40,000 nt of DNA from Ignatzschineria rhizosphaerae. GTDB taxonomy: Bacteria; Pseudomonadota; Gammaproteobacteria; Cardiobacteriales; Wohlfahrtiimonadaceae. The translations under genes and the position numbers were made by a program. This document shows, in pieces, positions 11,776 through 28,127 of the stretch (the first letter of the stretch is position 1; every line of letters begins with the position of its first letter). The DNA lies in the NCBI RefSeq assembly GCF_022655595.1, contig NZ_CP093379.1, positions 2,638,010 through 2,678,009 of the forward strand, given 5' to 3'. The notes under the pieces are model-generated. The model was not told the origin of the DNA. It saw only the letters and a list, made by a program, of their open reading frames with translations, and did not search any database.

Positions 11776-13446
<1,671 letters not shown>

Positions 13447-13490
13447 TTGAAAGATTACCGCTTAATCAACACTGATTAAACTATTTAAAA

Positions 13491-13521
13491 AGCGCTCTGA
13501 ATATTCAGGGCGCTTTTTTTA
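13491..13521 (+). terminator. Rho-independent terminator of groEL
   Basis: 10-bp stem agcgctctga/tcagggcgct (one G-U pair), loop atat, then T8. Confidence 0.8.
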
Positions 13522-13530
13522 TCATTTTTA

Positions 13531-13730
13531 TATAGTAAATTTGGTTTAAGAAAAACTGCTAGCGCGGTATTTTATAGTGAAATCGGTTTAAAAGTGACTG
13601 AATCAGATTGCCGGCGTATCGATTATGAGAAGCACAAGAATCGTTCTATCCGGCAGCATGCAAGCTAATTTGATACACACTTTGTGTTCTTAATACTTTT
13701 AAATAATGTTTCTTGAACCGAATCGATTAT
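13531..13730 (+). repeat. Intergenic repeat element, copy R4
   Basis: Closest relative of R1, with near-identical aatcggtttaaaag(t/a)gactgaatcagattgccggc...aagcacaagaatcgttctatccggc. It ends tcttgaaccgaatcgattat. Confidence 0.75.
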
Positions 13731-13744
13731 AAGAAGAATGTAAG

Positions 13745-13860
13745 CATTCCCTCTGGCATTGCATTAATTAATAAACGAGCGTATTAAACACCTTGCTTTT
13801 CATAGCCGATGCGCCGGCATTTGAGTCAGCTTATTTTGAACCGATTTCACTATAAAATAC
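13745..13860 (-). repeat. Intergenic repeat element, inverted internally deleted copy R5
   Basis: The reverse complement reads gtattttatagtgaaatcggttcaaaataagctgactcaaatgccggcgcatcggctatgaaaagcaaggtgtttaatacg. It lacks the gttctatccggc block. Its outer 22 nt (13839..13860) are a perfect inverted copy of 13567..13588. Confidence 0.7.
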
Positions 13861-14039
13861 TTTTGGGAAAATTTTTAGGCTAAAAAGCTAGACCTTTTAT
13901 TTTTAGTTTTCTATAATGAAGTTTCTGGGGAGTCCCGTTAACACTACGGGGTTACTTATTCTTATAAAGTACAGTAATACTGTGTTTTTGATTTGTTATT
14001 TTTATGTATACCCTCAACTGTACCCTTATAAATTCTTTT

Positions 14040-14330
14040 TTATTGCATGTACTCTTGTTCAGATATCCACTTTTGAATATCCGATAATTTCCACCGGGAA
14101 GCATTTCCTTGCTTAGTTGGTTTTGGAAAGTCGCCTTTTTGGATATTTGCGTAAATCCACTTTCTGGTAAATTTCACCATATCTTCTACATCCTCTATTC
14201 GCAGAAGCCTATCTCCATCTAATGTGGTTTCATTATCTTTAGCTCTCAAGAGAATAGAGATCTTATCTTCTAGGGATTTTAGAGTTTTTGCTGCATCTTC
14301 ATTTAGTTCAACCTTAATTAAGTTGCTCAT
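14040..14330 (-). CDS. AlpA/excisionase-family DNA-binding protein (Xis-like)
   Basis: The C-terminal half, LLRIEDVEDMVKFTRKWIYANIQKGDFPKPTKQGNASRWKLSDIQKWI, fits the AlpA/HTH_17 excisionase pattern. It is the last gene of the leftward operon. The ~45-aa N-terminal extension is unusual. Confidence 0.7.
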   Translation of the reverse strand: MSNLIKVELNEDAAKTLKSLEDKISILLRAKDNETTLDGDRLLRIEDVEDMVKFTRKWIYANIQKGDFPKPTKQGNASRWKLSDIQKWISEQEYMQ

Positions 14331-17174: not shown

Positions 17175-17782
17175 TACTTATCCTCCAATAGCTCAGATTG
17201 ATGTTTGTCATATTGCTGAATTGCCCAGACAATCGCATAACAGCACCAGATGAAACGGTATGAGTGCTTTTTCTGCATTGCTTCTACTCTTAATTCCCAA
17301 TTATCGCCAAGATAATCTGAGCGTTCAGCGCTCGTAATAAAGTCATATTCACTTTGTGGCTCAAGAAGTCCGTTGTCTTCAAGATCTTCCTTGGCTTTCT
17401 CGTATTCTTCTTCTGAATAGCCATTTTCGATCATATTATCGAGGTACTCCTGTAGGTATTCTGCTGTGCCTTCTTCGTCAAATTCATAGACTTTATCTCT
17501 ACGACATTCGGCTTCTACCTTTTCGCCCCAGTATCCAGGATTGATTCCCAGCTCTTCGTTTCTAAAGAACTTAAACATATCCTGACGCCTTCTAAATACG
17601 TAGCTACCCATATCGCCTGAGATTGCTAAATATCCATCCCAAGTGATTATTTGAAAAGCGAGGTTAAATGAGCCTTTATTGCTAAATGATAATGATCTAT
17701 AAACTCCGTTATCGTTGTTGATAGTCATTGTGTGATTTTCAATATCTTTTAAGAAGATTTCTGGTGTTGGTATCTTGTTCAT
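17174..17782 (-). CDS. Hypothetical phage protein (202 aa)
   Basis: ORF with ATGA-type coupling at both ends. No motif recognised. Confidence 0.6.
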   Translation of the reverse strand: MNKIPTPEIFLKDIENHTMTINNDNGVYRSLSFSNKGSFNLAFQIITWDGYLAISGDMGSYVFRRRQDMFKFFRNEELGINPGYWGEKVEAECRRDKVYEFDEEGTAEYLQEYLDNMIENGYSEEEYEKAKEDLEDNGLLEPQSEYDFITSAERSDYLGDNWELRVEAMQKKHSYRFIWCCYAIVWAIQQYDKHQSELLEDK

Positions 17783-18219
17783 TAGTCCTCCAAGAGCTCA
17801 GGGTTTTCGTGAAGGTTTCCGATTACTTCAAACTCATCTTTATAGACTGCTAAAAAGCCATATATGGCATTGTGATTGCGAGGATCTAACAAAACTGTAT
17901 TGCCATCTACTTTTGAAACAATAAAGTTGTAGTGCTCGCCTCCAAGTTTGATTTTTACGATGTCATCATAAAAACAGTCTTTGCCGTTCTTATCGTTTAG
18001 ATCAACTCCTAGCATGACTATTTTTTCATTCATCTCCCAATGAAGCTGATCTCCACCGCCAAAGCACATCATGCTTTCAGACGTTCTCAGAAACACATTT
18101 CCACAAAAGCTAATAAAATGTTGGTAATAGCTATTTTCTCTAGGGAGTATCATTTGCTTATATTTAATATCCCAAGCTCTAAACTTAATTAATCTACTCA
18201 TATCTAGACCTAGCTCCAT
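17782..18219 (-). CDS. YopX-family phage protein
   Basis: Sequence (L)IKFRAWD...M and C-terminal FEVIGN(L)HENPELLE are the YopX signature. The start may instead be the internal Met at 18201 (MSRLIKFRAW). Confidence 0.8.
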   Translation of the reverse strand: MELGLDMSRLIKFRAWDIKYKQMILPRENSYYQHFISFCGNVFLRTSESMMCFGGGDQLHWEMNEKIVMLGVDLNDKNGKDCFYDDIVKIKLGGEHYNFIVSKVDGNTVLLDPRNHNAIYGFLAVYKDEFEVIGNLHENPELLED

Positions 18220-20213: not shown

Positions 20214-21257
20214 TTAATAATTGATAGAAATGTTTGGGATCTTGTTTTTAGCTATTGCTGTGATAATTTCTTTAGCCTGATCTTGACTGATGCCAATTGC
20301 CACAAGTCCGTCCAGCGCTTCACGATTAATCTTTCTTCTGTGATTTTCATTCGCTTGTCTGCGAGCCTCAGCATCTGCCTTTTTTTGCGCTTCTTTAGCG
20401 ATGCGATCTTGTTCAGCTTTGACTGCGGCTTGTTTTTCACGTTCTGCACGCTCTTCCGCTTCGATCTGAGCTTTTTTAACTCTCTTTAAAGTTTCTTGAG
20501 CTTCTTTTTTCGCTCTTTCCTCAGCGTCCTTGGCTTGTTGTTGAGCTGCTAGCTTTTCTTGTTCAGCCTTTTTAATTGCCGCTTCTGCATCTGCTTTGGC
20601 TTTTGCTTCCGCCTCAGCTTTAATCTTCGCTTCACGTTCTGCTTGAGCTTTTTTCTCAGCTTCAATGCGCTCGGCTTCTGCCTTTTTAGCTTCGATCTCT
20701 GCTTGTTCAACCTCTGCTTTTAATGCTGTGAGTTTTTGAATCGCTACGAATTTCGCTGCATCAGCATCTGACTGAACTTCTTGATAATCAAACTTATCGT
20801 TTGTGATCTCTTCGATCTTTTTACCGATAATTTCTGATGATGCGCCATGCTCTTTAAGTTGATCGGGTAGAGCAGTGATCTCATTAACCTTCGCTTGGAT
20901 CTCTGCAATGCGAGTTTTCTCAGCTTCTTCATATTCAGTTAACGGAGCTCTTACTTGAGCTTGCCAACCCTCTAAAAGCTCTCTAACTCTGCGGCGCTCC
21001 GCATCAATTAGCTTTGGTTGCTCCATGATTGATGCTTTGAGGTCTTTGCCAATGCTGTCTAAGAGTGTTTTAGATCGTGCGATCTTGTGAGCGAATGAAG
21101 CGATCTCTTTACGACCTTTATCGGTGCTCATATCAGGCACAAATGAATCAACTTCTGCTTTGATCTGTGCGAGATATGGATCTAAACCGTTTTCGGTTGT
21201 GAATACTACTAAAGGATTTGCCTGTACTGCTTCGATACTGATTAATTCTGTTGTCAT
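20214..21257 (-). CDS. Phage protein with a long A/K/E-rich coiled-coil (possibly DUF1351-like)
   Basis: 347 aa. A globular N-terminus is followed by about 130 aa of AEAKAKADAEA / KKAEAERIEAEKKAQAEREAK repeats. The family assignment is tentative. Confidence 0.6.
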   Translation of the reverse strand: MTTELISIEAVQANPLVVFTTENGLDPYLAQIKAEVDSFVPDMSTDKGRKEIASFAHKIARSKTLLDSIGKDLKASIMEQPKLIDAERRRVRELLEGWQAQVRAPLTEYEEAEKTRIAEIQAKVNEITALPDQLKEHGASSEIIGKKIEEITNDKFDYQEVQSDADAAKFVAIQKLTALKAEVEQAEIEAKKAEAERIEAEKKAQAEREAKIKAEAEAKAKADAEAAIKKAEQEKLAAQQQAKDAEERAKKEAQETLKRVKKAQIEAEERAEREKQAAVKAEQDRIAKEAQKKADAEARRQANENHRRKINREALDGLVAIGISQDQAKEIITAIAKNKIPNISINY

Positions 21258-21829: not shown

Positions 21830-22024
21830 CTAAACTCTCTGCGATTCGATAACAACGCCGTCAAATTCTTCAATCCATACTTTCATTTGTTCGGCATTTT
21901 CTAGGGTGGCGATTTCTCTAGCGACCTGCTCGCCGTTTAAGTCGAACATCGTAAATTCGAGCGTATCCCCGATAAAAACTTCTGCACCTTTTGAATCTTT
22001 AATATTTAAACTTTGCTTGCTCAT
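21830..22024 (-). CDS. Hypothetical phage protein (64 aa)
   Basis: Co-oriented and preceded by the same junction module (aaggtaagagag-ATGAGCAAG). Confidence 0.5.
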   Translation of the reverse strand: MSKQSLNIKDSKGAEVFIGDTLEFTMFDLNGEQVAREIATLENAEQMKVWIEEFDGVVIESQRV

Positions 22025-22057
22025 CTCTCTTACCTTCTAAGCTGTCTGTAATTCGTT

Positions 22058-22513
22058 TTATTTCTTGTGCTTTTCAACACTAACAACTTCGCCTGTTTCA
22101 ACATCCATAAGAACGACCTCTGTTACTGTTTGGTGTCTGCTTCTTTGAGGTGCTTGGCTTGACGCTTGCCCTAAAATTTCTGCCTTTTGCTTTCCAAATT
22201 CTCTGCGTATTGCGGAACAGCTCTTTGAGCAACTAAATCCCCATCCTCTACCGAGATCAGCGCCTTTTGCTGTGTATTCCGTACCGCAGTGGCATTTCAT
22301 GAGGAATCTTCCTGTCAGCCCTTTTTTATTCTTTGGTACTGCCTTTTTTCTTGCTCTTGAGGATTTACTTTGCGAAGTAGAGTGGTGCTTTCTATCGCCT
22401 TCTAGATATGCGATTAACTCCAGCGCTTCCTCATCAGTTCCGCAAAAGAATGGGGAGTAAGGATCGTTTGCACCACCGTCATCATTATCTAAATCGTAAT
22501 CTGCTTCTGCCAT
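22058..22513 (-). CDS. Hypothetical phage protein with a C-terminal Cys-rich (zinc-ribbon-like) segment, 151 aa from the Met at 22513
   Basis: AGGAG sits 5 nt before the ATG at 22513 (MAEADYDLDNDDGG...). That start removes the overlap with the upstream gene. The Cys pattern is KCHCG...FSCSKSC. Confidence 0.55.
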   Translation of the reverse strand: MAEADYDLDNDDGGANDPYSPFFCGTDEEALELIAYLEGDRKHHSTSQSKSSRARKKAVPKNKKGLTGRFLMKCHCGTEYTAKGADLGRGWGFSCSKSCSAIRREFGKQKAEILGQASSQAPQRSRHQTVTEVVLMDVETGEVVSVEKHKK

Positions 22514-22521
22514 GTCCACTC

Positions 22522-22782
22522 CTAAGCTGTCTGTAATTCTGTGCGCATATCTAAAATGATGTTTTCCATCTTGCGCTGTAATTCTTGAACGATAGGGCAA
22601 TCACTAACCGCTAATACTGCAAGCTCGATAAGTAATCTTGATTCTTCGCTATCTAATACGTCATGAATTGCCTGCGACTCATCAGCTGTGATGTTGTCTG
22701 TCGCATCAATTGCATTTCTTGCATCTTCACGCTTGGTTGAATTATCGAAATATCTTTTTGCTTGTTTTGGACGGTAGCTCAT
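22522..22782 (-). CDS. Hypothetical protein, first gene of the PL-like operon (N position)
   Basis: 86 aa with AAGGA RBS, immediately downstream of the predicted PL-like promoter. No arginine-rich motif was seen, so it is not called as N. Confidence 0.55.
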   Translation of the reverse strand: MSYRPKQAKRYFDNSTKREDARNAIDATDNITADESQAIHDVLDSEESRLLIELAVLAVSDCPIVQELQRKMENIILDMRTELQTA

Positions 22783-22821
22783 GATTGTGATTCCTTTTAG
22801 TACTTCCTATGTGTTGAATGT

Positions 22822-22850
22822 ATTATTACAATTGTAATTATGTAAGTCAA
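22822..22850 (-). promoter_or_regulatory. PL-like early-left promoter with embedded operator (OL)
   Basis: The minus strand reads TTGACT-17 nt-AATAAT. The spacer and -10 contain the perfect 14-bp palindrome ATTACAATTGTAAT (22825..22838). Its near-copy lies in the cI/cro intergenic region. Confidence 0.6.
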
Positions 22851-22903
22851 CACAATAAACACAATTTATTTCATTTGTGTTTAAAATATTTTTCTATAGG
22901 CGT

Positions 22904-22925
22904 AAAAAAACCGCCGATTGGCGGT
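22904..22925 (-). terminator. Rho-independent terminator of the cI/rexA-like/rexB-like operon (tIMM analogue)
   Basis: The minus strand reads aaaccgcc-aatc-ggcggttt followed by a T-run, 17 nt after the rexB-like stop. Confidence 0.8.
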
Positions 22926-22941
22926 TTAATATGGGTGTGTT

Positions 22942-23385
22942 TTATTTTGAAAGATTAATTATGCTAATGAGTACTACTAATATATTGAGCATAGACCAAG
23001 TCAAGCATGTAAATAATAGATTTAATATAAAATAACTTTCAGATAGTGAGGCTAGAGATAAAGCAAATATCAATAAAAGAAGAGGGATAGTTGTTAAATA
23101 CATACCTATTAAGGCGTGGAGGGAGCCATTTTTTTTGTATATTACAAATTTACTAGTATCACCAATAGCAAAAAATATCGCTAAAGATCCAGCAAGAAGC
23201 GCTAACATGGTGATTGAGTAAGATGATGTTGAAGCAGAAACAACGCCTATATTCTCTGTTAAATTAAACCTGCAAAATTTTACTAACCAAAGTCTATATG
23301 CAATTACTGGTAATAACCCAACCCCCAGCGTCGCAATATTTATTAAAAATGTCAACTTGAACACTTCTGCTTTGTTGATTTTCAT
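22942..23385 (-). CDS. RexB-like four-TM membrane protein
   Basis: 147 aa with four long hydrophobic segments. The block SSYSITMLALLAGSLAIFFAIG resembles recalled lambda RexB SSYAGTMIAILIAALTFLIG. AGGAG sits 10 nt before the ATG. It is the last gene before the immunity terminator and is AT-rich. Confidence 0.65.
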   Translation of the reverse strand: MKINKAEVFKLTFLINIATLGVGLLPVIAYRLWLVKFCRFNLTENIGVVSASTSSYSITMLALLAGSLAIFFAIGDTSKFVIYKKNGSLHALIGMYLTTIPLLLLIFALSLASLSESYFILNLLFTCLTWSMLNILVVLISIINLSK

Positions 23386-24325
23386 TGTACGTCAACTCCT
23401 GCTTGTAACTGAGAACTCTCTCCTTTAACTCGCTGTTATTCTCTATCTTTTCATTTATTATAACCCCAATTGTCTTTGATGTAGTTATTTTTATCCTATC
23501 GGTAAGATTTGCTTGAGAGTTTATATAGTAGTCCATGGATCTAGATTCTAGATCTTTTCTGGCTCTTATTCTTCCATCAATAAAGCCAGACGAAGAGGGA
23601 TCTTCGCTATCTGAGTCCAAGGCTGACTTGAGGAGAGCTAAATATTCATCCTTGATAGAAGTGCCTCTTTCGGGGATGAACTCAATTTTGATCTTTCCGA
23701 CGTTTGTATTATTAAAGCCAGAATTGAACAGTAAGTTACCCAAAGCGTTTGCTAGGTTGTTTTTGGCAGATATCTCCACACTCCCGGTACCTATAAAACT
23801 CAAGTCATCAACTTCTGATTGATGTAAATCTATCTGCATAGGGGTTACTATCAACTCTAAAAGTATATCTTTTTTAAAGAGGAGCTTATTAACAAATAAA
23901 GTAAAGTCACTAATATTAGGGGCATTGAGTGAGGAGATAAAACCTAAAAAACCATCGTGAAACGAAACATAAGAAGAATACCCTATTTTTTCACCATCTG
24001 AAAGTTGAGACTCAATGTCTTTTATTTCTAAATTTTTAGTCTGTATGCTATGAATCATCTCCCCATCACTGGTTTTTATGAAATAAAACACATTAGGTGA
24101 TTCTGTTTTTAGTAAGAATATATTGTTGCTATTATTATCTAAAAAGGAGGATTTAAATTCATTATCATCATGTTCTACGAAGCATTCTAGAAAAGCATGG
24201 AGATTTATACTGTAGCGCAGTCCATTGCTCAATATGTCATATGATCGGTCAGCGACACTATACGCAAAGTATCTTAGGGTTTTATGTAAGTCTTTTTTTC
24301 TGTAATTTTGTATCTCTGTACTCAC
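23294..24325 (-). CDS. RexA-like protein (343 aa, with a C-terminal extension relative to lambda RexA)
   Basis: GTG start 7 nt after GGAG, 59 nt downstream of the cI stop. Several blocks are collinear with recalled lambda RexA: RYSINLHAFL~KRSINLSVFL, FYFIKTSDGEMI...IKDIESQLSDGEKIGYSSYV...GFLGF~FLFTKTNDKSLV...VEDIKNSLADDESLGFPSFL...DTIGF, PNISDFTLFV~PTTSDLTDFL, FIGTGSVEISAK~FIGRTTVKVEAK. Confidence 0.65.
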   Translation of the reverse strand: MSTEIQNYRKKDLHKTLRYFAYSVADRSYDILSNGLRYSINLHAFLECFVEHDDNEFKSSFLDNNSNNIFLLKTESPNVFYFIKTSDGEMIHSIQTKNLEIKDIESQLSDGEKIGYSSYVSFHDGFLGFISSLNAPNISDFTLFVNKLLFKKDILLELIVTPMQIDLHQSEVDDLSFIGTGSVEISAKNNLANALGNLLFNSGFNNTNVGKIKIEFIPERGTSIKDEYLALLKSALDSDSEDPSSSGFIDGRIRARKDLESRSMDYYINSQANLTDRIKITTSKTIGVIINEKIENNSELKERVLSYKQELTYNENQQSRSVQVDIFNKYCDAGGWVITSNCI

Positions 24326-24384
24326 TTCTAAGCTCCACTTCTCAATAAGAGTATTTTATCCTTAAGTAATATTTTTATCAGCGG

Positions 24385-25095
24385 TTACAATAAAACTGAA
24401 TACCAAAATACACGTCCAATTACGTTAAACTCATTCACGTTCATTTTTGTTGGTTGATAACTTGGGTTATACGACTCAATAGATACTTGGCTTCCCGAGA
24501 TCCATTTGAGCATTTTTATTTGTAGTAGCCCGTCATTATTTATAGCGTAGATTTGCCCATCTTTAATATTTTTATTGCCTGTATCTACAGCAACAGTACA
24601 TCCACTTGGAATTACCGGCTCCATGCTGTCACCGCTTGCAGTTACACAAATAGCATTTTCAGGATCTACACCTTTATTTTTTAAAGTGTATTTGCTGAAT
24701 CTTAATTTTAGCCCTGAATAGTCTTCAAGGGCAAAGCAACCATTTCCTGCTGATAGGTGAACGTCTTTTAGGTATGGAATTTCTACTTCATGAGGATGAA
24801 GAGGAGTATTGTCGTCCCATGGATCTATACCTATTAGCCCGTCAAGCTCTGGTGGGAGATCTTTGTTTTCTTGGATAGATGTGTTTACAGAGCTGTATTT
24901 TTCGCCTTTGCCTGTTACTAACCACTCGGAATTTACGCCCAAAACTTTAGCTATCTCCACAATTCTACGAGAACTTTGATTCCTTCCGCTTTCTAAAAAC
25001 ATGATTGTTGATTGAGACACTCCGGCCTTATCTGCTATCTCTTGTTGAGATAAACCTCTCTCTAGTCGTATTTCTTTGAATCTATCCTTAAGCAT
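24385..25095 (-). CDS. cI-like repressor (XRE HTH + LexA/S24 autopeptidase domain)
   Basis: N-terminal HTH LSQQEIADKAGVSQSTIMFLESG. Candidate Ala-Gly cleavage site (LSAGNG). S24 catalytic GDSMEP and a downstream Lys (IKMLKW). The start is taken at Met 25095 (GGAG 8 nt upstream) rather than the track start at 25149. Confidence 0.9.
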   Translation of the reverse strand: MLKDRFKEIRLERGLSQQEIADKAGVSQSTIMFLESGRNQSSRRIVEIAKVLGVNSEWLVTGKGEKYSSVNTSIQENKDLPPELDGLIGIDPWDDNTPLHPHEVEIPYLKDVHLSAGNGCFALEDYSGLKLRFSKYTLKNKGVDPENAICVTASGDSMEPVIPSGCTVAVDTGNKNIKDGQIYAINNDGLLQIKMLKWISGSQVSIESYNPSYQPTKMNVNEFNVIGRVFWYSVLL

Positions 25096-25121
25096 ATAAA
25101 AATCTCCAGTAAATTCCCTAT

Positions 25122-25149
25122 ATCTTATTACGATTGTAATAAATAGCAA
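25122..25149 (-). promoter_or_regulatory. PRM-like promoter for cI with overlapping operator
   Basis: The minus strand reads TTGCTA-16 nt-TAAGAT. The operator ATTACGATTGTAAT (25127..25140) matches the OL palindrome at 13 of 14 positions and ends on the first base of the -10. Confidence 0.4.
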
Positions 25150-25192
25150 ATTCTAGATTTTATCTGCAAAATTAATATATTTCCTATGTTGT

Positions 25193-25221
25193 TTGATTAA
25201 TTATTTCTTATGTAATAAAAT
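25193..25221 (+). promoter_or_regulatory. PR-like early-right promoter with a degenerate operator
   Basis: Sequence TTGATT-17 nt-TAAAAT. The 14-mer ATTTCTTATGTAAT (25203..25216) matches the palindrome at 10 of 14 positions. It occupies the same position relative to the -10 as in the PRM-like promoter. Confidence 0.45.
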
Positions 25222-25252
25222 AATCTCAATTACAAACACAAAGGAGTTTTTA

Positions 25253-25468
25253 GTGAAATATGTGTTAATTGAAGCTATTAAAAAAGCTGGCGGGCAAACC
25301 GTATTGGCTAAAAAACTGGGAGTTGCTCAATGCACAATTTCTCATTGGGTGCATAGAAATCAAGTAGCTCCTCCCGCAGAACACGTTCCCATGATTGAAG
25401 AGTTAACAGGCGTTAGTAGGCATAAATTGCGCCCTGATGTTTTCGGGGAAGAAAAGAAGGAGGCTTAA
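25253..25468 (+). CDS. Cro-like / YdaS-family HTH regulator
   Basis: GTG at 25253 lies 7 nt after AAGGAG; the track start at 25193 falls inside the promoter. The sequence GGQTVLAKKLGVAQCTISHWV.RNQVP.E....IE..TGV.RH.LRPD(V)F fits the YdaS/Cro-type pattern. It is divergent from cI. Confidence 0.8.
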   Translation: MKYVLIEAIKKAGGQTVLAKKLGVAQCTISHWVHRNQVAPPAEHVPMIEELTGVSRHKLRPDVFGEEKKEA

Positions 25469-25693
25469 GTGAGCGTACTAATCACAAAAGAAAAAGCATC
25501 AACTCAACGAAAGCGAATACGCCTTTTGCTTGAGAGCGGAAAAGAGGTCACTAACAGGCTTATTCAGCAAGATATGGGGATTGTTGGTGCAACTGCTCGA
25601 TTGAGTGAGCTAAGGCGTGAATTTCAACGAGAAGGAAAGGTTTTAGCAACTCGAAGAGAGTCAGAAGGTTATTTGGTTTATTTCCTTAGATAA
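25469..25693 (+). CDS. Small winged-helix DNA-binding protein (HTH_39-like) at the cII position
   Basis: GTG start 5 nt after AAGGAGG. ATARLSELRREFQREG resembles the recalled (R)I.ELR..G motif of HTH_39 proteins. Confidence 0.55.
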   Translation: MSVLITKEKASTQRKRIRLLLESGKEVTNRLIQQDMGIVGATARLSELRREFQREGKVLATRRESEGYLVYFLR

Positions 25694-25794
25694 AAAATAA
25701 ACCGCTACAAGAAAATTAATTCAAGAGCGGTAGATATACATTTAAATGACAGAGGTATTTTACCACTACTTGCTATTAAATCAAAGGTTTAAGT

Positions 25795-25989
25795 ATGGCA
25801 AAAGAAACAGAGCAAGAAAGAGAAGAGCGCATTATCAGAACGCTTGATTTGATGTTTCAAGGCGCAGATCAATATCCGTGTGAATGTGGGGTGATGCATT
25901 TTGAGTTACCTGAGAAAGGAAAAACTCGATTAATGGCGTGCGGTAATTGTGGTCGTCATTTTACGGTTAGACAGGATATAGACGCATGA
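25795..25989 (+). CDS. Small zinc-ribbon protein
   Basis: 64 aa with CEC...(20 aa)...CGNC. It has a 4-nt overlap with the following replication gene. Confidence 0.55.
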   Translation: MAKETEQEREERIIRTLDLMFQGADQYPCECGVMHFELPEKGKTRLMACGNCGRHFTVRQDIDA

Positions 25990-26861
25990 GTAAAGACATA
26001 TTAAGAGATTTAAGAGGCTTCGGAACGGTAGAGAAGTGGGTTCTCACCGATCCGAAAATCAATATACACGCTAAAGCGATTTACTCTTTACTGTGCGCTT
26101 ATGCAGGCGGTAAAGATAGCGCATTCCCAAGCGTGGACACACTGACAGTCCAACTAAATATTAGTAAGGACACCATCTACAAGTATATCAAGGAACTTCG
26201 AGAAAAGGGAGTTATTGAAGTCGAACAAATCAGGGAAGGAGGTAGATTCTCTAGAAATATCTACACCCTTCTGAACTACAACCCGAACATGATTTTAACC
26301 GAGTCGGGTTCTACCGGACACGGTAACACCGTAACCGATACCACCGTAGCCGATCAAGTCGACACTAAGAATAACAGAACAAAGAGTAACAGATTAAAGA
26401 GTAACAGTAATAAAACCCCCATACCCCCACAGGGGGCAGATGGCGATTTGCCAAAACCTGACGAAACTGAGCTGAAACCAAAAGAAGATCCATCTAAGCC
26501 TGAAAAGAAACCAGAAGGTTATTCAGAGAAGTTTGAGCAATGGTGGGCGTTATATCCACGTAAGACAGGAAAAGGGGCTGCTTGGAAAAAATGGAAAAGC
26601 GAGAAGCTCGAAAAGCGTTTTGATGAATTGATCGAAAAGTTAGAGCAGCAAAATGCGATGCAGCACGCATTTATGAATCCACAGTACATCGTTGGCGCAT
26701 CAAGATATTTAAACGAAGCACGCTATGACGATGAAGTCGTATTTTTAGGGGGAAGTAATGAAACCAATTCAGGCGGTAATCAACGGAAAGAATCCACGAT
26801 GGAAAGAGCAAGACGTAAGCAAAGGGAGTTTAGGGCAAGTCTTGACAGTGAATCAGCTTAA
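25986..26861 (+). CDS. Replication initiator / replisome organiser (lambda O position)
   Basis: N-terminal winged helix (AK.(I)Y..L...A......FPS...L...L.(I)S..T(I).KY(I)KEL...G(V)I). A low-complexity linker is encoded by direct repeats. The C-terminal F.(Q)WW..YPRK.GK..A.K.W motif is common in phage replication proteins. Confidence 0.65.
   Translation: MSKDILRDLRGFGTVEKWVLTDPKINIHAKAIYSLLCAYAGGKDSAFPSVDTLTVQLNISKDTIYKYIKELREKGVIEVEQIREGGRFSRNIYTLLNYNPNMILTESGSTGHGNTVTDTTVADQVDTKNNRTKSNRLKSNSNKTPIPPQGADGDLPKPDETELKPKEDPSKPEKKPEGYSEKFEQWWALYPRKTGKGAAWKKWKSEKLEKRFDELIEKLEQQNAMQHAFMNPQYIVGASRYLNEARYDDEVVFLGGSNETNSGGNQRKESTMERARRKQREFRASLDSESA
26312..26407 (+). repeat. Iteron-like direct repeats (candidate ori) inside the O-like gene
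   Basis: 15-bp periodic array. It contains caccgtaaccgat (26327) and caccgtagccgat (26342), then aagaataacag (26367), aagagtaacag (26382) and aagagtaacag (26397). The element cccccatacccccacaggggg follows. Confidence 0.5.
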
Positions 26862-27674: not shown

Positions 27675-28127
27675 ATGAGTAGAGAAATCAAATACAGAGT
27701 AAAAGTGACTTGGTGTGATGAGGTGCGAATTGCTCAGGTGTCTGAAATGCAATTTGGGAAGTGGATTGAAGGTGCAGTAATTGGTAAAGCCTTTTTTGAT
27801 CTATGCAGTTACTCGGTGGAAGAAGTAGATTTTGAAACCTCACCTGCTACTGGCGATGTGCTTATGCAATACACAGGCTCAAAGGATAAGAATGGAGTTG
27901 AAATCTACGAGGGAGATATCGTGAATGTTAACAACATTAATGGTGTCTTTAAGGTGATCTTTGATGAGTGGTTTGGCGGATTCTGTCTTGTTAACCCCGA
28001 CTATGCAGATAGAAGTAAAAATCCTAAAAAGTCTTTTAACCTTATGAGAGCTTCTGAATTTTTTGAAGTAATCGGAAACATCTACGAAAACGCAGACTTG
28101 TTGGAGGCTTCAAATGAGCAAGGTTAA
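27675..28127 (+). CDS. YopX-family phage protein (second copy)
   Basis: C-terminal FFEVIGNIYENADLLE and the internal D(K)NG..IYEGDIV motif. It is a paralogue of 17782..18219. Confidence 0.8.
   Translation: MSREIKYRVKVTWCDEVRIAQVSEMQFGKWIEGAVIGKAFFDLCSYSVEEVDFETSPATGDVLMQYTGSKDKNGVEIYEGDIVNVNNINGVFKVIFDEWFGGFCLVNPDYADRSKNPKKSFNLMRASEFFEVIGNIYENADLLEASNEQG

What the first reader, a model, noticed from the sequence alone, without database searches (positions are those of the whole stretch)
22942..24325. RexA/RexB-like two-gene exclusion cassette in the canonical slot downstream of cI
Two ORFs lie between the cI-like repressor and the PL-like promoter. One is a 343-aa soluble protein and the other a 147-aa protein with four hydrophobic helices.

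The layout copies lambda PRM-cI-rexA-rexB-tIMM:
- The cI/ORF gap is 59 nt with no hairpin.
- The first ORF has GGAG + GTG and the second has AGGAG + ATG.
- A clean intrinsic terminator (22904..22925) follows.

Several blocks align collinearly with lambda RexA as I recall it: SINL..FL; F.F.KT.D...(I/V)..I.......(I/V).DI...L.D.E..G..S(Y/F); G..GF; P..SD.T.F; FIG...V...AK. The small protein shares SSY..TM.A.L...L....IG with RexB.

The cassette is visibly more AT-rich than the flanking phage genes. The RexA-like protein is ~60 aa longer at its C-terminus than lambda RexA. The Rex mechanism is still poorly understood, and a distant homologue pair in a non-enteric, low-GC host would be a useful comparator. 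If the homology is only superficial, this is instead a new repressor-linked abortive-infection/exclusion module.
Basis: partly seen in the sequence, partly recalled or inferred. Interest (0 to 1): 0.8.

Follow-up and report, generated by a model that had tools for sequence, protein, structure and literature searches.

The report
Divergent RexA/RexB phage-exclusion pair behind cI
The two genes are true but distant relatives of phage lambda's RexA/RexB exclusion system, in the same slot behind the repressor gene of an Ignatzschineria prophage, so this is an ordinary new member of a known defence family.

Summary

**RexA.** The 343-aa ORF (23294-24325, minus strand) is a RexA.
- Pfam PF15969: 107 bits against a cutoff of 25.
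- PADLOC RexA: 5e-30.
- Its AF2 model has lambda RexA (8TWQ) as top Foldseek hit, E 5.5e-14.
- The equivalents of lambda's DNA-binding R219/K221 are kept.

**RexB.** The 147-aa ORF (22942-23385, minus strand) is a RexB.
- PADLOC RexB: 1.6e-11.
- hhalign against lambda-type RexB: 95.4%, E 2e-8.
- It has four hydrophobic segments in lambda's positions.
- It gives no hit at all to Pfam's RexB model.

**Layout.** The order is cro, divergent promoters, cI, a 59-nt gap, rexA, rexB, a terminator, then a PL-like promoter. A 14-bp palindrome lies at both promoter regions.

**Source.** A lambdoid prophage of Ignatzschineria rhizosphaerae.

**Novelty.** RexAB is a catalogued defence system, and relatives in Pseudomonas putida and actinophages have been studied. 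This is a new member of a known kind.

**Side finding.** rexB starts 92 nt inside rexA. In sampled "long-form" relatives the first ATG gives an 86-107 nt overlap. Gene callers truncate or miss RexB there, and it is absent from the protein collection for this genome.

The parts
25253..25468 (+). cro-like gene (71 aa, GTG start after AGGAG), divergent from cI
   Evidence: Pfam YdaS_toxin 2.3e-19 and a weak P22_Cro match. Sequence read.
25096..25252 (.). Divergent promoter/operator region between cI and cro. It holds the palindrome ATTACGATTGTAAT at 25127-25140.
   Evidence: Promoter-like sites lie on both strands. The 14-bp palindrome occurs with 0 mismatches only here and at the PL-like promoter.
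24385..25095 (-). cI-type repressor (236 aa from the ATG at 25095, GGAG 8 nt upstream; the mechanical ORF runs from a TTG at 25149)
   Evidence: Pfam HTH_3 2.2e-14 and Peptidase_S24 1.7e-22. PHROG_4 transcriptional repressor 2.3e-58.
24326..24384 (-). 59-nt cI-rexA spacer with GGAG and no terminator
   Evidence: Sequence read. Folding gives z -0.71.
23294..24325 (-). rexA homologue, 343 aa, GTG start (long-form RexA)
   Evidence: Pfam PF15969 1.2e-30. PADLOC RexA 5.2e-30. PDB 8twq 5.3e-10. AF2 pLDDT 84.5. Foldseek 8twq E 5.5e-14. R254/R256 correspond to lambda R219/K221.
23294..23385 (-). 92-nt dual-coding overlap: the RexA C-terminal tail (including W336) and the RexB N-terminus/TM1, in different frames
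   Evidence: The overlap is identical in the 72%-identical homologue L002. First-ATG overlaps of 86-107 nt are seen in L003, L004, L006, L008, L009, L011 and L012. W336 is conserved in 82/101 relatives.
22942..23385 (-). rexB homologue, 147 aa, four hydrophobic helices
   Evidence: PADLOC RexB 1.6e-11. PHROG RexB-like 6e-3. BLASTP against lambda RexB E 4e-4. hhalign 95.4%, E 2e-8. Hydropathy.
22901..22927 (-). Intrinsic terminator closing the cI-rexA-rexB unit (lambda tIMM equivalent)
   Evidence: Folding gives -12.3 kcal/mol, z -3.3, followed by a T7 run.
22822..22850 (-). PL-like promoter (TTGACT-17-AATAAT, TG extended) carrying the palindrome ATTACAATTGTAAT at 22825-22838
   Evidence: It is followed by the leftward early operon, whose first ORF is 22782-22522.

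Best explanation
This is a RexAB-type two-component abortive-infection/exclusion module of a lambdoid prophage of Ignatzschineria rhizosphaerae.

**Shown here**
- The large protein is a member of the RexA family by sequence and predicted fold. It is a two-domain protein, and the basic residues needed for DNA binding in lambda RexA are conserved.
- The small protein is a RexB homologue with four transmembrane-type helices.
- The genes lie directly downstream of cI on the same strand, with no terminator in between.
- An intrinsic terminator follows rexB, just upstream of a PL-like promoter.

**Inferred from lambda and from the P. putida and actinophage homologues**
- In the lysogen the pair is co-transcribed with cI from a PRM-like promoter.
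- RexA is a cytoplasmic dimer that senses a signal made by a superinfecting phage.
- RexA then activates RexB in the inner membrane.
- Activated RexB depolarises or permeabilises the membrane, which stops growth and aborts the infection.

**Additional inference**
rexB initiates 92 nt inside rexA, behind its own AGGAG. Its translation is therefore probably coupled to rexA, which would help fix the RexA:RexB ratio.
For: **RexA**
- Pfam PF15969: 107 bits against a cutoff of 25.
- PADLOC RexA: 5.2e-30, covering 245 of 267 profile positions.
- PHROG 'RexA-like exclusion protein': 2.8e-14.
- phmmer against PDB 8twq: 5.3e-10.
- BLASTP against lambda RexA: E 4e-13.
- AF2 model: pLDDT 84.5, pTM 0.79.
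- Foldseek top hits are 8twq_B and 8twq_A at E 5.5e-14 and 1.1e-13, prob 1.00. Next is CENP-L, chain L of entry 7r5s; I identify that chain, and its orthology to IML3, from my own knowledge. PMC11077077 reports IML3 as a structural relative of RexA.
- R254-A255-R256 aligns with lambda R219-A220-K221, and D250 with D215.

**RexB**
- PADLOC RexB: 1.6e-11 over profile positions 15-139 of 141.
- hhalign against lambda/Klebsiella RexB: 95.4%, E 2e-8, 128 columns.
- Four hydrophobic segments are collinear with lambda's.

**Conservation and partnership**
- A 72%-identical RexA and 77%-identical RexB lie behind an S24 repressor on an independent contig.
- All ten long-form relatives sampled, apart from L002, have a RexB-like ORF directly downstream of RexA. 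In nine this is a called or re-extended gene. In L011 it is an uncalled partial frame cut by the contig end and judged by eye.

**Layout**

**Function of relatives**
- Membrane damage and phage defence by P. putida RexAB (PMC12894663).
- DNA binding by lambda and actinophage RexA (PMC11077077).
Against: - No functional data exist for this locus. Expression, membrane localisation, DNA binding and exclusion are all inferred.
- RexB gives no hit to Pfam's RexB model PF15968 or to NCBIfam.
- Its single-sequence AF2 model is poor (pLDDT 62.6) and gave no structural match.
- Identity to lambda is low: 20-28% for RexA and 17-27% for RexB.
- Even in lambda the trigger and the channel activity of RexB are not biochemically proven. 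[quoted passage not shown]
Confidence: 0.85

Rival explanations
1. The pair mainly serves the prophage's own lysis-lysogeny switch rather than defence. RexA would bind DNA, CI or Cro to bias the switch towards lytic growth, as shown for lambda RexA acting without RexB. RexB would modulate host proteolysis or cell death.
For: PMC11077077 reports that lambda RexA acts independently of RexB on the bistable switch. The residues needed for DNA binding (R219/K221) are kept here as R254/R256. The genes sit inside the immunity region next to operator-bearing promoters.
Against: This reading is not exclusive of defence, since lambda does both. In every relative sampled RexA is followed directly by a RexB-like ORF, which argues for a sensor-effector pair. 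The P. putida RexA did not alter repressor-promoter expression (PMC12894663, passage seen).
Confidence: 0.25
2. The cassette is an inactive remnant: moron genes drifting in a cryptic prophage, with the rexB reading frame no longer expressed.
For: rexB is not in the public protein collection. It has no Pfam hit. The region is the most AT-rich stretch in the window. No integrase lies at the left prophage end within the window.
Against: Both frames are intact, with Shine-Dalgarno sequences. An independent 72-77% identical pair keeps both lengths (344/147 aa), both starts and the same 92-nt overlap. Family-wide conserved residues are retained. The absence from databases is explained by gene callers disallowing long same-strand overlaps; the same callers truncate RexB in relatives.
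Confidence: 0.05
3. The resemblance to RexA/RexB is superficial, and this is an unrelated repressor-linked exclusion module.
For: Pairwise identity is low, and Pfam's RexB model does not hit the small protein.
Against: The RexA score is four times Pfam's gathering score. The structural top hit is lambda RexA at prob 1.00. The RexB profile-profile comparison gives 95.4%.
Confidence: 0.01

Closest known systems
Phage lambda RexA/RexB (PDB 8TWQ for RexA; Pfam PF15969/PF15968)
   Same: - The order is cro, then divergent cI, then rexA, rexB, a terminator and PL.
- The two-domain RexA fold.
- The R-A-(K/R) DNA-binding motif and D215 equivalent.
- A RexB of about 145 aa with four collinear hydrophobic helices.
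   Different: - Only 20-28% (RexA) and 17-27% (RexB) identity.
- RexA is 64 aa longer: about 19 N-terminal, about 16 internal and about 29 C-terminal residues, with a conserved Trp.
- rexB starts 92 nt inside rexA, whereas lambda has a 15-nt gap.
- RexB does not hit Pfam's RexB model at all.
- cI has a Shine-Dalgarno sequence.
Long-form RexAB subfamily in prophage and metagenome contigs (P0003-P0151, median about 313 aa; 215 clusters at 50% identity)
   Same: - The C-terminal tail motif [ILF]xx[FYL]xDxxxW of RexA.
- RexB directly downstream, with its first ATG 86-107 nt inside rexA.
- Often placed behind an S24 repressor (L004, L012).
   Different: - At most 28% identical to the window RexA.
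- The window protein and its single close relative (P0002) form an isolated branch.
- That branch has about 15-19 extra N-terminal residues and a 6-aa insert (316-321).
Pseudomonas putida prophage P1 RexABpp (PP_5643/PP_5644; PMC12894663)
   Same: - Carried by a prophage in a non-enteric gammaproteobacterium.
- Located downstream of a cI-like repressor.
- A RexA-like DNA binder paired with a 4-TM effector.
- Experimentally shown to defend against phage through membrane damage.
   Different: - The P. putida pair is separated from its repressor by two genes and was detectable only by HHpred and structure.
- The pair here is recognised directly by Pfam and PADLOC.
- The sequences were not compared here because they were not at hand.
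Actinobacteriophage Rex-like pairs (Sbash gp30/31, CarolAnn gp44, Toast gp42; PMC11077077)
   Same: - Long RexA homologues (337-372 aa).
- Some lie adjacent to a CI-like repressor and a Cro-like gene, in lambda's arrangement.
- They form dimers that bind DNA non-specifically.
   Different: - The hosts are Gram-positive actinobacteria.
- Not compared by sequence here.
RdgC (recombination-associated DNA-binding protein)
   Same: PMC11077077 reports a shared two-domain fold with RexA.
   Different: - RdgC has no RexB partner and is not a defence protein.
- It did not appear in the Foldseek list here.

Membership tests
RexA (Pfam PF15969 / PADLOC PDLC02339) | Profile match above the curated threshold over most of the domain | tested here: met
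   PF15969: 107.3 bits against a cutoff of 25, profile positions 5-208 of 235. PADLOC: 102.8 bits, profile positions 19-263 of 267.
RexA (Pfam PF15969 / PADLOC PDLC02339) | Two-domain RexA fold as in the crystal structure 8TWQ | tested here: met
   AF2 model with pLDDT 84.5. Foldseek top hits are 8twq_B and 8twq_A at E 5.5e-14 and 1.1e-13, prob 1.00, TM 0.41-0.49. The modest TM and high rmsd would fit a different inter-domain angle, since the crystal structure is closed and PMC11077077 describes AF models as open. That was not checked domain by domain.
RexA (Pfam PF15969 / PADLOC PDLC02339) | Basic residues required for DNA binding (lambda R219/K221) and the inter-domain contact D215 | tested here: met
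   R254/R256 and D250 align with them. The column is R/K in 67 and K/R in 71 of 73 sequences.
RexA (Pfam PF15969 / PADLOC PDLC02339) | Homodimer that binds DNA non-specifically | not testable with these tools
   This needs SEC-MALS and EMSA, or at least a multimer model with DNA.
RexB (Pfam PF15968 / PADLOC PDLC02340) | Profile match to a RexB model | tested here: inconclusive
   - Met for PADLOC (1.6e-11, 42.7 bits, profile positions 15-139 of 141).
- Met for hhalign against lambda-type RexB (95.4%, E 2e-8).
- Weak for PHROG 14878 (6e-3).
- Not met for Pfam PF15968: no hit for this protein, although lambda RexB scores 305 bits in the same library.
RexB (Pfam PF15968 / PADLOC PDLC02340) | Small inner-membrane protein with four transmembrane helices | tested here: met
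   Kyte-Doolittle 19-residue means of at least 1.6 at four segments (about 20, 66, 104 and 133), collinear with lambda RexB. The low-confidence AF2 model is all-helical with four long helices. Membrane insertion itself was not tested.
RexAB system (lambda-type immunity-region exclusion module) | rexA immediately followed by rexB on one strand | tested here: met
   The same pairing is seen in L002-L004, L006-L009, L012 and L013. In L011 only an uncalled, contig-truncated frame was read by eye.
RexAB system (lambda-type immunity-region exclusion module) | Located downstream of cI in one transcription unit that ends at a terminator before PL | tested here: met
   - The cI stop lies 59 nt upstream, with no hairpin in the gap.
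- A terminator lies at 22927-22901.
- A PL-like promoter lies at 22850-22822 and carries an operator palindrome shared with the cI/cro region.
- Co-transcription itself is inferred.
RexAB system (lambda-type immunity-region exclusion module) | Excludes superinfecting phage by RexA-triggered, RexB-dependent loss of membrane potential | not testable with these tools
   This needs plaque assays and membrane-potential measurements.

The most novel reading that the evidence does not exclude
In the long-form branch of the RexAB family, rexB is translated from a start about 90-100 nt inside rexA. One stretch of DNA would then encode both a conserved C-terminal Trp-containing helix of the sensor RexA and the first transmembrane helix of the effector RexB.

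This dual coding could couple translation and lock the RexA:RexB ratio. It could also tie the evolution of a sensor-effector contact to a single sequence. Because gene callers disallow such overlaps, RexB is truncated or missed. Pfam's RexB model also fails on this branch. RexAB systems would therefore be under-counted in defence surveys that need both genes.
Probability: 0.45. Interest if true: 0.4.

Novelty: new member of a known kind. Interest (0 to 1): 0.25.

Why it matters
The find adds a divergent RexAB pair from a little-studied gammaproteobacterial lineage (Cardiobacteriales), with lambda's immunity-region layout intact. It could serve as one more comparator for the still unresolved Rex mechanism.

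It is not unique. About 215 clusters of relatives exist at 50% identity, and non-enteric homologues have already been characterised.

The more useful practical points:
- The effector gene is not in the public protein collection searched for this genome.
- In the long-form relatives sampled, rexB usually begins deep inside rexA.
- Those RexB proteins fall below Pfam's threshold.

Annotation-based defence surveys may therefore under-count complete RexAB systems.

Tried and rejected
- **megablast of 22000-26000 against phage genomes:** no match.
- **tblastn of RexA against phages:** only two weak enteric-phage hits at 23-24% identity.
- **Word-indexed protein search:**
  - With RexA it found only the protein itself and one 72% relative.
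  - With RexB it found nothing, not even the protein itself.
- **The search for related loci on genome contigs:**
  - The family alignment had no block conserved enough to search with.
  - The two-sequence alignment gave 92 pattern hits, none confirmed.
- **RexB structure:** the single-sequence AF2 model was poor (pLDDT 62.6). Its BFVD search gave nothing below E 0.5, so no structural test of RexB was possible.
- **Terminator scan:** the consensus scan did not report the rexB terminator, but folding did.
- **Search for a lambda PLIT-like promoter for rexB inside rexA:** the only match was a 9/12 hit at 23854-23827. The region as a whole had fewer promoter-like hits than shuffles (10 against 12.7). 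This is no evidence either way.
- **"Extension is read-through junk" for the RexA C-terminal tail:** rejected. W336 and the flanking hydrophobic positions are conserved in 82/101 relatives. The tail is modelled as helices with pLDDT 83-95.
- **Using MAFFT end positions to size the extension:** uninformative, because the global alignment stretches the termini. HMM coordinates were used instead.
Full report
**Observation**

- The first is a 343-aa ORF from the GTG at 24325 to the stop at 23294.
- The second is a 147-aa ORF from the ATG at 23385 to the stop at 22942.

Other stated details also hold.
- The upstream gene ends at 24385, which leaves a 59-nt gap.
- GGAG lies 7 nt before the GTG and AGGAG lies 9 nt before the ATG.
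- The gap has no hairpin beyond chance (z -0.71).
- Downstream of the small ORF, the hairpin CCGCC-AATC-GGCGG followed by seven T folds at -12.3 kcal/mol with z -3.3. The simple terminator scan missed it.
- The cassette is 33.5% GC against 39.2 +/- 2.2% for windows of the same size. It is the most AT-rich 1.4 kb in the window.

**Identity of the large protein**

It is a RexA by every test.
- Pfam PF15969: 1.2e-30, 107 bits against a cutoff of 25.
- PADLOC RexA: 5.2e-30 over profile positions 19-263 of 267.
- PHROG "RexA-like exclusion protein": 2.8e-14.
- phmmer against solved structures finds lambda RexA 8TWQ at 5.3e-10.
- BLASTP against lambda RexA gives 28% identity over 156 residues, E 4e-13.

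The structure prediction agrees. An AF2 model built from 101 relatives has pLDDT 84.5 and pTM 0.79. Its best Foldseek hits in the PDB are the two 8TWQ chains, at E 5.5e-14 and 1.1e-13 with probability 1.00.
- The next hit is chain L of the human CCAN entry 7r5s. I identify it as CENP-L, the human IML3 orthologue, from my own knowledge. PMC11077077 reports IML3 as a structural relative of RexA.
- The TM-score of 0.41-0.49 and the large rmsd would fit a different inter-domain angle, because the crystal form is closed. I did not superpose the domains separately.

The residues whose double mutation abolishes DNA binding in lambda, R219/K221, correspond to R254/R256. D215 corresponds to D250.

**Identity of the small protein**

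The evidence is weaker than for RexA but sufficient.
- PADLOC RexB: 1.6e-11 over profile positions 15-139 of 141.
- PHROG "RexB-like exclusion protein": 6e-3.
- BLASTP against lambda RexB: 27% identity over 93 residues, E 4e-4, including the SSY..TM block.
- A profile of nine long-form RexB sequences aligns to lambda plus Klebsiella-phage RexB with 95.4% probability, E 2e-8, over 128 columns.
- Four hydrophobic segments, centred near residues 20, 66, 104 and 133, match lambda's in order and spacing.

Some tests failed.
- Pfam's RexB model PF15968 does not hit this protein, although it scores lambda RexB at 305 bits. It gives only sub-threshold scores of 13-22 bits to related long-form RexBs.
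- NCBIfam has no model for either protein.
- A single-sequence AF2 model was too poor for fold comparison.

**Surroundings**

The window comes from the chromosome of Ignatzschineria rhizosphaerae (Gammaproteobacteria, Cardiobacteriales). There the RexA protein is named "hypothetical protein MMG00_12050". The genes sit in a lambdoid prophage that begins just after groEL.

Reading outward from the immunity region:
- **Leftward from the PL-like promoter:** small unknown genes, RecT, a YqaJ exonuclease, YopX, an HNH endonuclease, SSB and an AlpA-type regulator.
- **The repressor:** the gene upstream of rexA is a 236-aa HTH plus S24-peptidase repressor.
- **Rightward, diverging from cI:** a Cro/YdaS-like gene, replication genes, a RecA-dependent nuclease and the terminase.

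A 14-bp palindrome, ATTACAAT(T/C)GTAAT, occurs without mismatch exactly twice in 40 kb.
- One copy lies inside the PL-like promoter TTGACT-17-AATAAT (22825-22838).
- The other lies 31 nt upstream of the cI start (25127-25140).

This is what a shared repressor operator would look like. The anatomy therefore copies lambda's PRM-cI-rexA-rexB-tIMM-PL arrangement (lambda reference).

**Most likely mechanism**

By homology this is a two-component abortive-infection system expressed with the repressor in the lysogen. The sequence shows family membership of both proteins, their adjacency, the lack of a terminator after cI, and the terminator after rexB.

The following steps are inferred from studied relatives.
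- RexA is a cytoplasmic, DNA-binding dimer that detects a superinfecting phage.
- RexA then activates RexB.
- RexB damages or depolarises the membrane and halts growth.

The relatives that support this are:
- lambda, where RexA:RexB stoichiometry matters (my own knowledge of Parma et al. 1992 and of Snyder and McWilliams 1989);
- P. putida RexAB, where RexA overproduction causes RexB-dependent membrane permeabilisation and the pair protects against phages (PMC12894663);
- lambda and actinophage RexA proteins, which bind DNA non-specifically (PMC11077077).

A second role for RexA in the prophage's own switch, as in lambda, is possible and does not exclude defence.

**Placement in the family**

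A search of 1.84 billion cluster representatives found 215 relatives at E <= 1e-3. Nearly all are 300-330 aa, and none is closer than E 5e-29 apart from the protein itself. One 72%-identical protein from a sequencing-run assembly lies behind its own S24 repressor. The pair therefore belongs to a "long-form" RexA branch and is an isolated twig on it.

The 64 extra residues relative to lambda are spread out: about 19 at the N-terminus, about 16 internal and about 29 at the C-terminus. The C-terminal tail is not junk.
- W336 is conserved in 82 of 101 relatives, with flanking hydrophobic positions.
- The tail is modelled as confident helices.
- Lambda and a Klebsiella phage RexA (279 aa) lack it.

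**Side finding: the rexA/rexB overlap**

The 92-nt overlap is identical in the 72% relative. In seven more distant long-form loci (L003, L004, L006, L008, L009, L011, L012) the first ATG of the RexB frame lies 86-107 nt inside rexA. In several of them it follows a GGAG-type sequence.
- For L003, L008 and L009, using that start restores the first transmembrane helix and extends the PADLOC RexB match to profile positions 7-9. The L004 and L006 matches still begin at profile positions 24-32.
- Two loci do not fit this range. L007 overlaps by 1-19 nt. In L013 the first ATG gives 77 nt, and other in-frame starts give 47-239 nt.
- Gene callers report these RexBs truncated (107-145 aa instead of 145-163). 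They do not report them at all for L002, L011 and the Ignatzschineria genome.
- The window's RexB is absent from the 5.8-billion-cluster protein collection.
- Lambda-type short forms have a 15-nt gap instead.
- The RexA Trp codon is co-encoded with a Gly codon of RexB's first helix (T|GG).

I did not find this overlap mentioned in the main text of the two Rex papers I read. Its functional meaning, whether translational coupling or ratio control, is inference.

**Novelty and score**

RexAB is a textbook system. It has Pfam and PADLOC models and is catalogued by DefenseFinder as mostly prophage-borne and proteobacterial (PMC9090908). Long RexA homologues beside CI-like repressors, and a non-enteric RexAB, are already published.

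The finding is correct and well read by the first stage. It is a new member of a known kind, so interest is low to moderate. The overlap and under-annotation issue is the only part that goes beyond the expected.

Noticed in passing
window 23294-23385; L002 2092-2183; L003 4845-4948; L004 4845-4942; L006 2380-2468; L008 3322-3407; L009 1047-1135; L012 3336-3430: rexB begins 86-104 nt inside rexA in most long-form RexAB loci sampled. Gene callers truncate RexB there, or miss it entirely for the window genome, L002 and L011. Lambda-type short forms have a 15-nt gap instead.
   Followed up: yes
window 22825-22838 and 25127-25140: The 14-bp palindrome ATTACAAT(T/C)GTAAT occurs with no mismatch only twice in the window. 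One copy is in the PL-like promoter and one is just upstream of cI. It is probably the repressor operator. Only degenerate further copies (3-4 mismatches) lie nearby.
   Followed up: partly
L005 4771-5171 (contig of a RexA relative, P0004): An RdgC-family gene (PF04381) lies about 3.6 kb downstream of a rexAB pair on a phage-like contig. RdgC is the reported structural relative of RexA.
   Followed up: no
window 23535-23822 (+): A 95-aa ORF lies antisense to rexA. The same frame is open for 141 aa in the 72% homologue (L002 1511-1936, minus strand). No family match was sought. It is probably a by-product of the AT-rich coding sequence.
   Followed up: no
window 13447-14330: The left end of the prophage: groEL ends at 13446, then comes an AT-rich stretch of about 600 nt with no ORF above 66 aa, then an AlpA-type regulator (14040-14330). 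No integrase or tRNA gene lies at this end within the window.
   Followed up: partly
window 17782-18219 (-) and 27675-28127 (+): Two YopX-family genes, one on each early arm of the prophage.
   Followed up: no
window 20214-21257 (-): A 347-aa protein next to RecT has a long Lys/Ala/Glu-rich low-complexity middle (AEAEAKAKADAEAA...). It has no Pfam match.
   Followed up: no
window 22522-22782 (-) and 22058-22600 (-): The first genes of the PL-like operon have no known function. The 86-aa product has no significant match. The 180-aa ORF matches PHROG 21416 (unknown function, 2e-18) and overlaps the 86-aa ORF, so its real start is probably further downstream.
   Followed up: no
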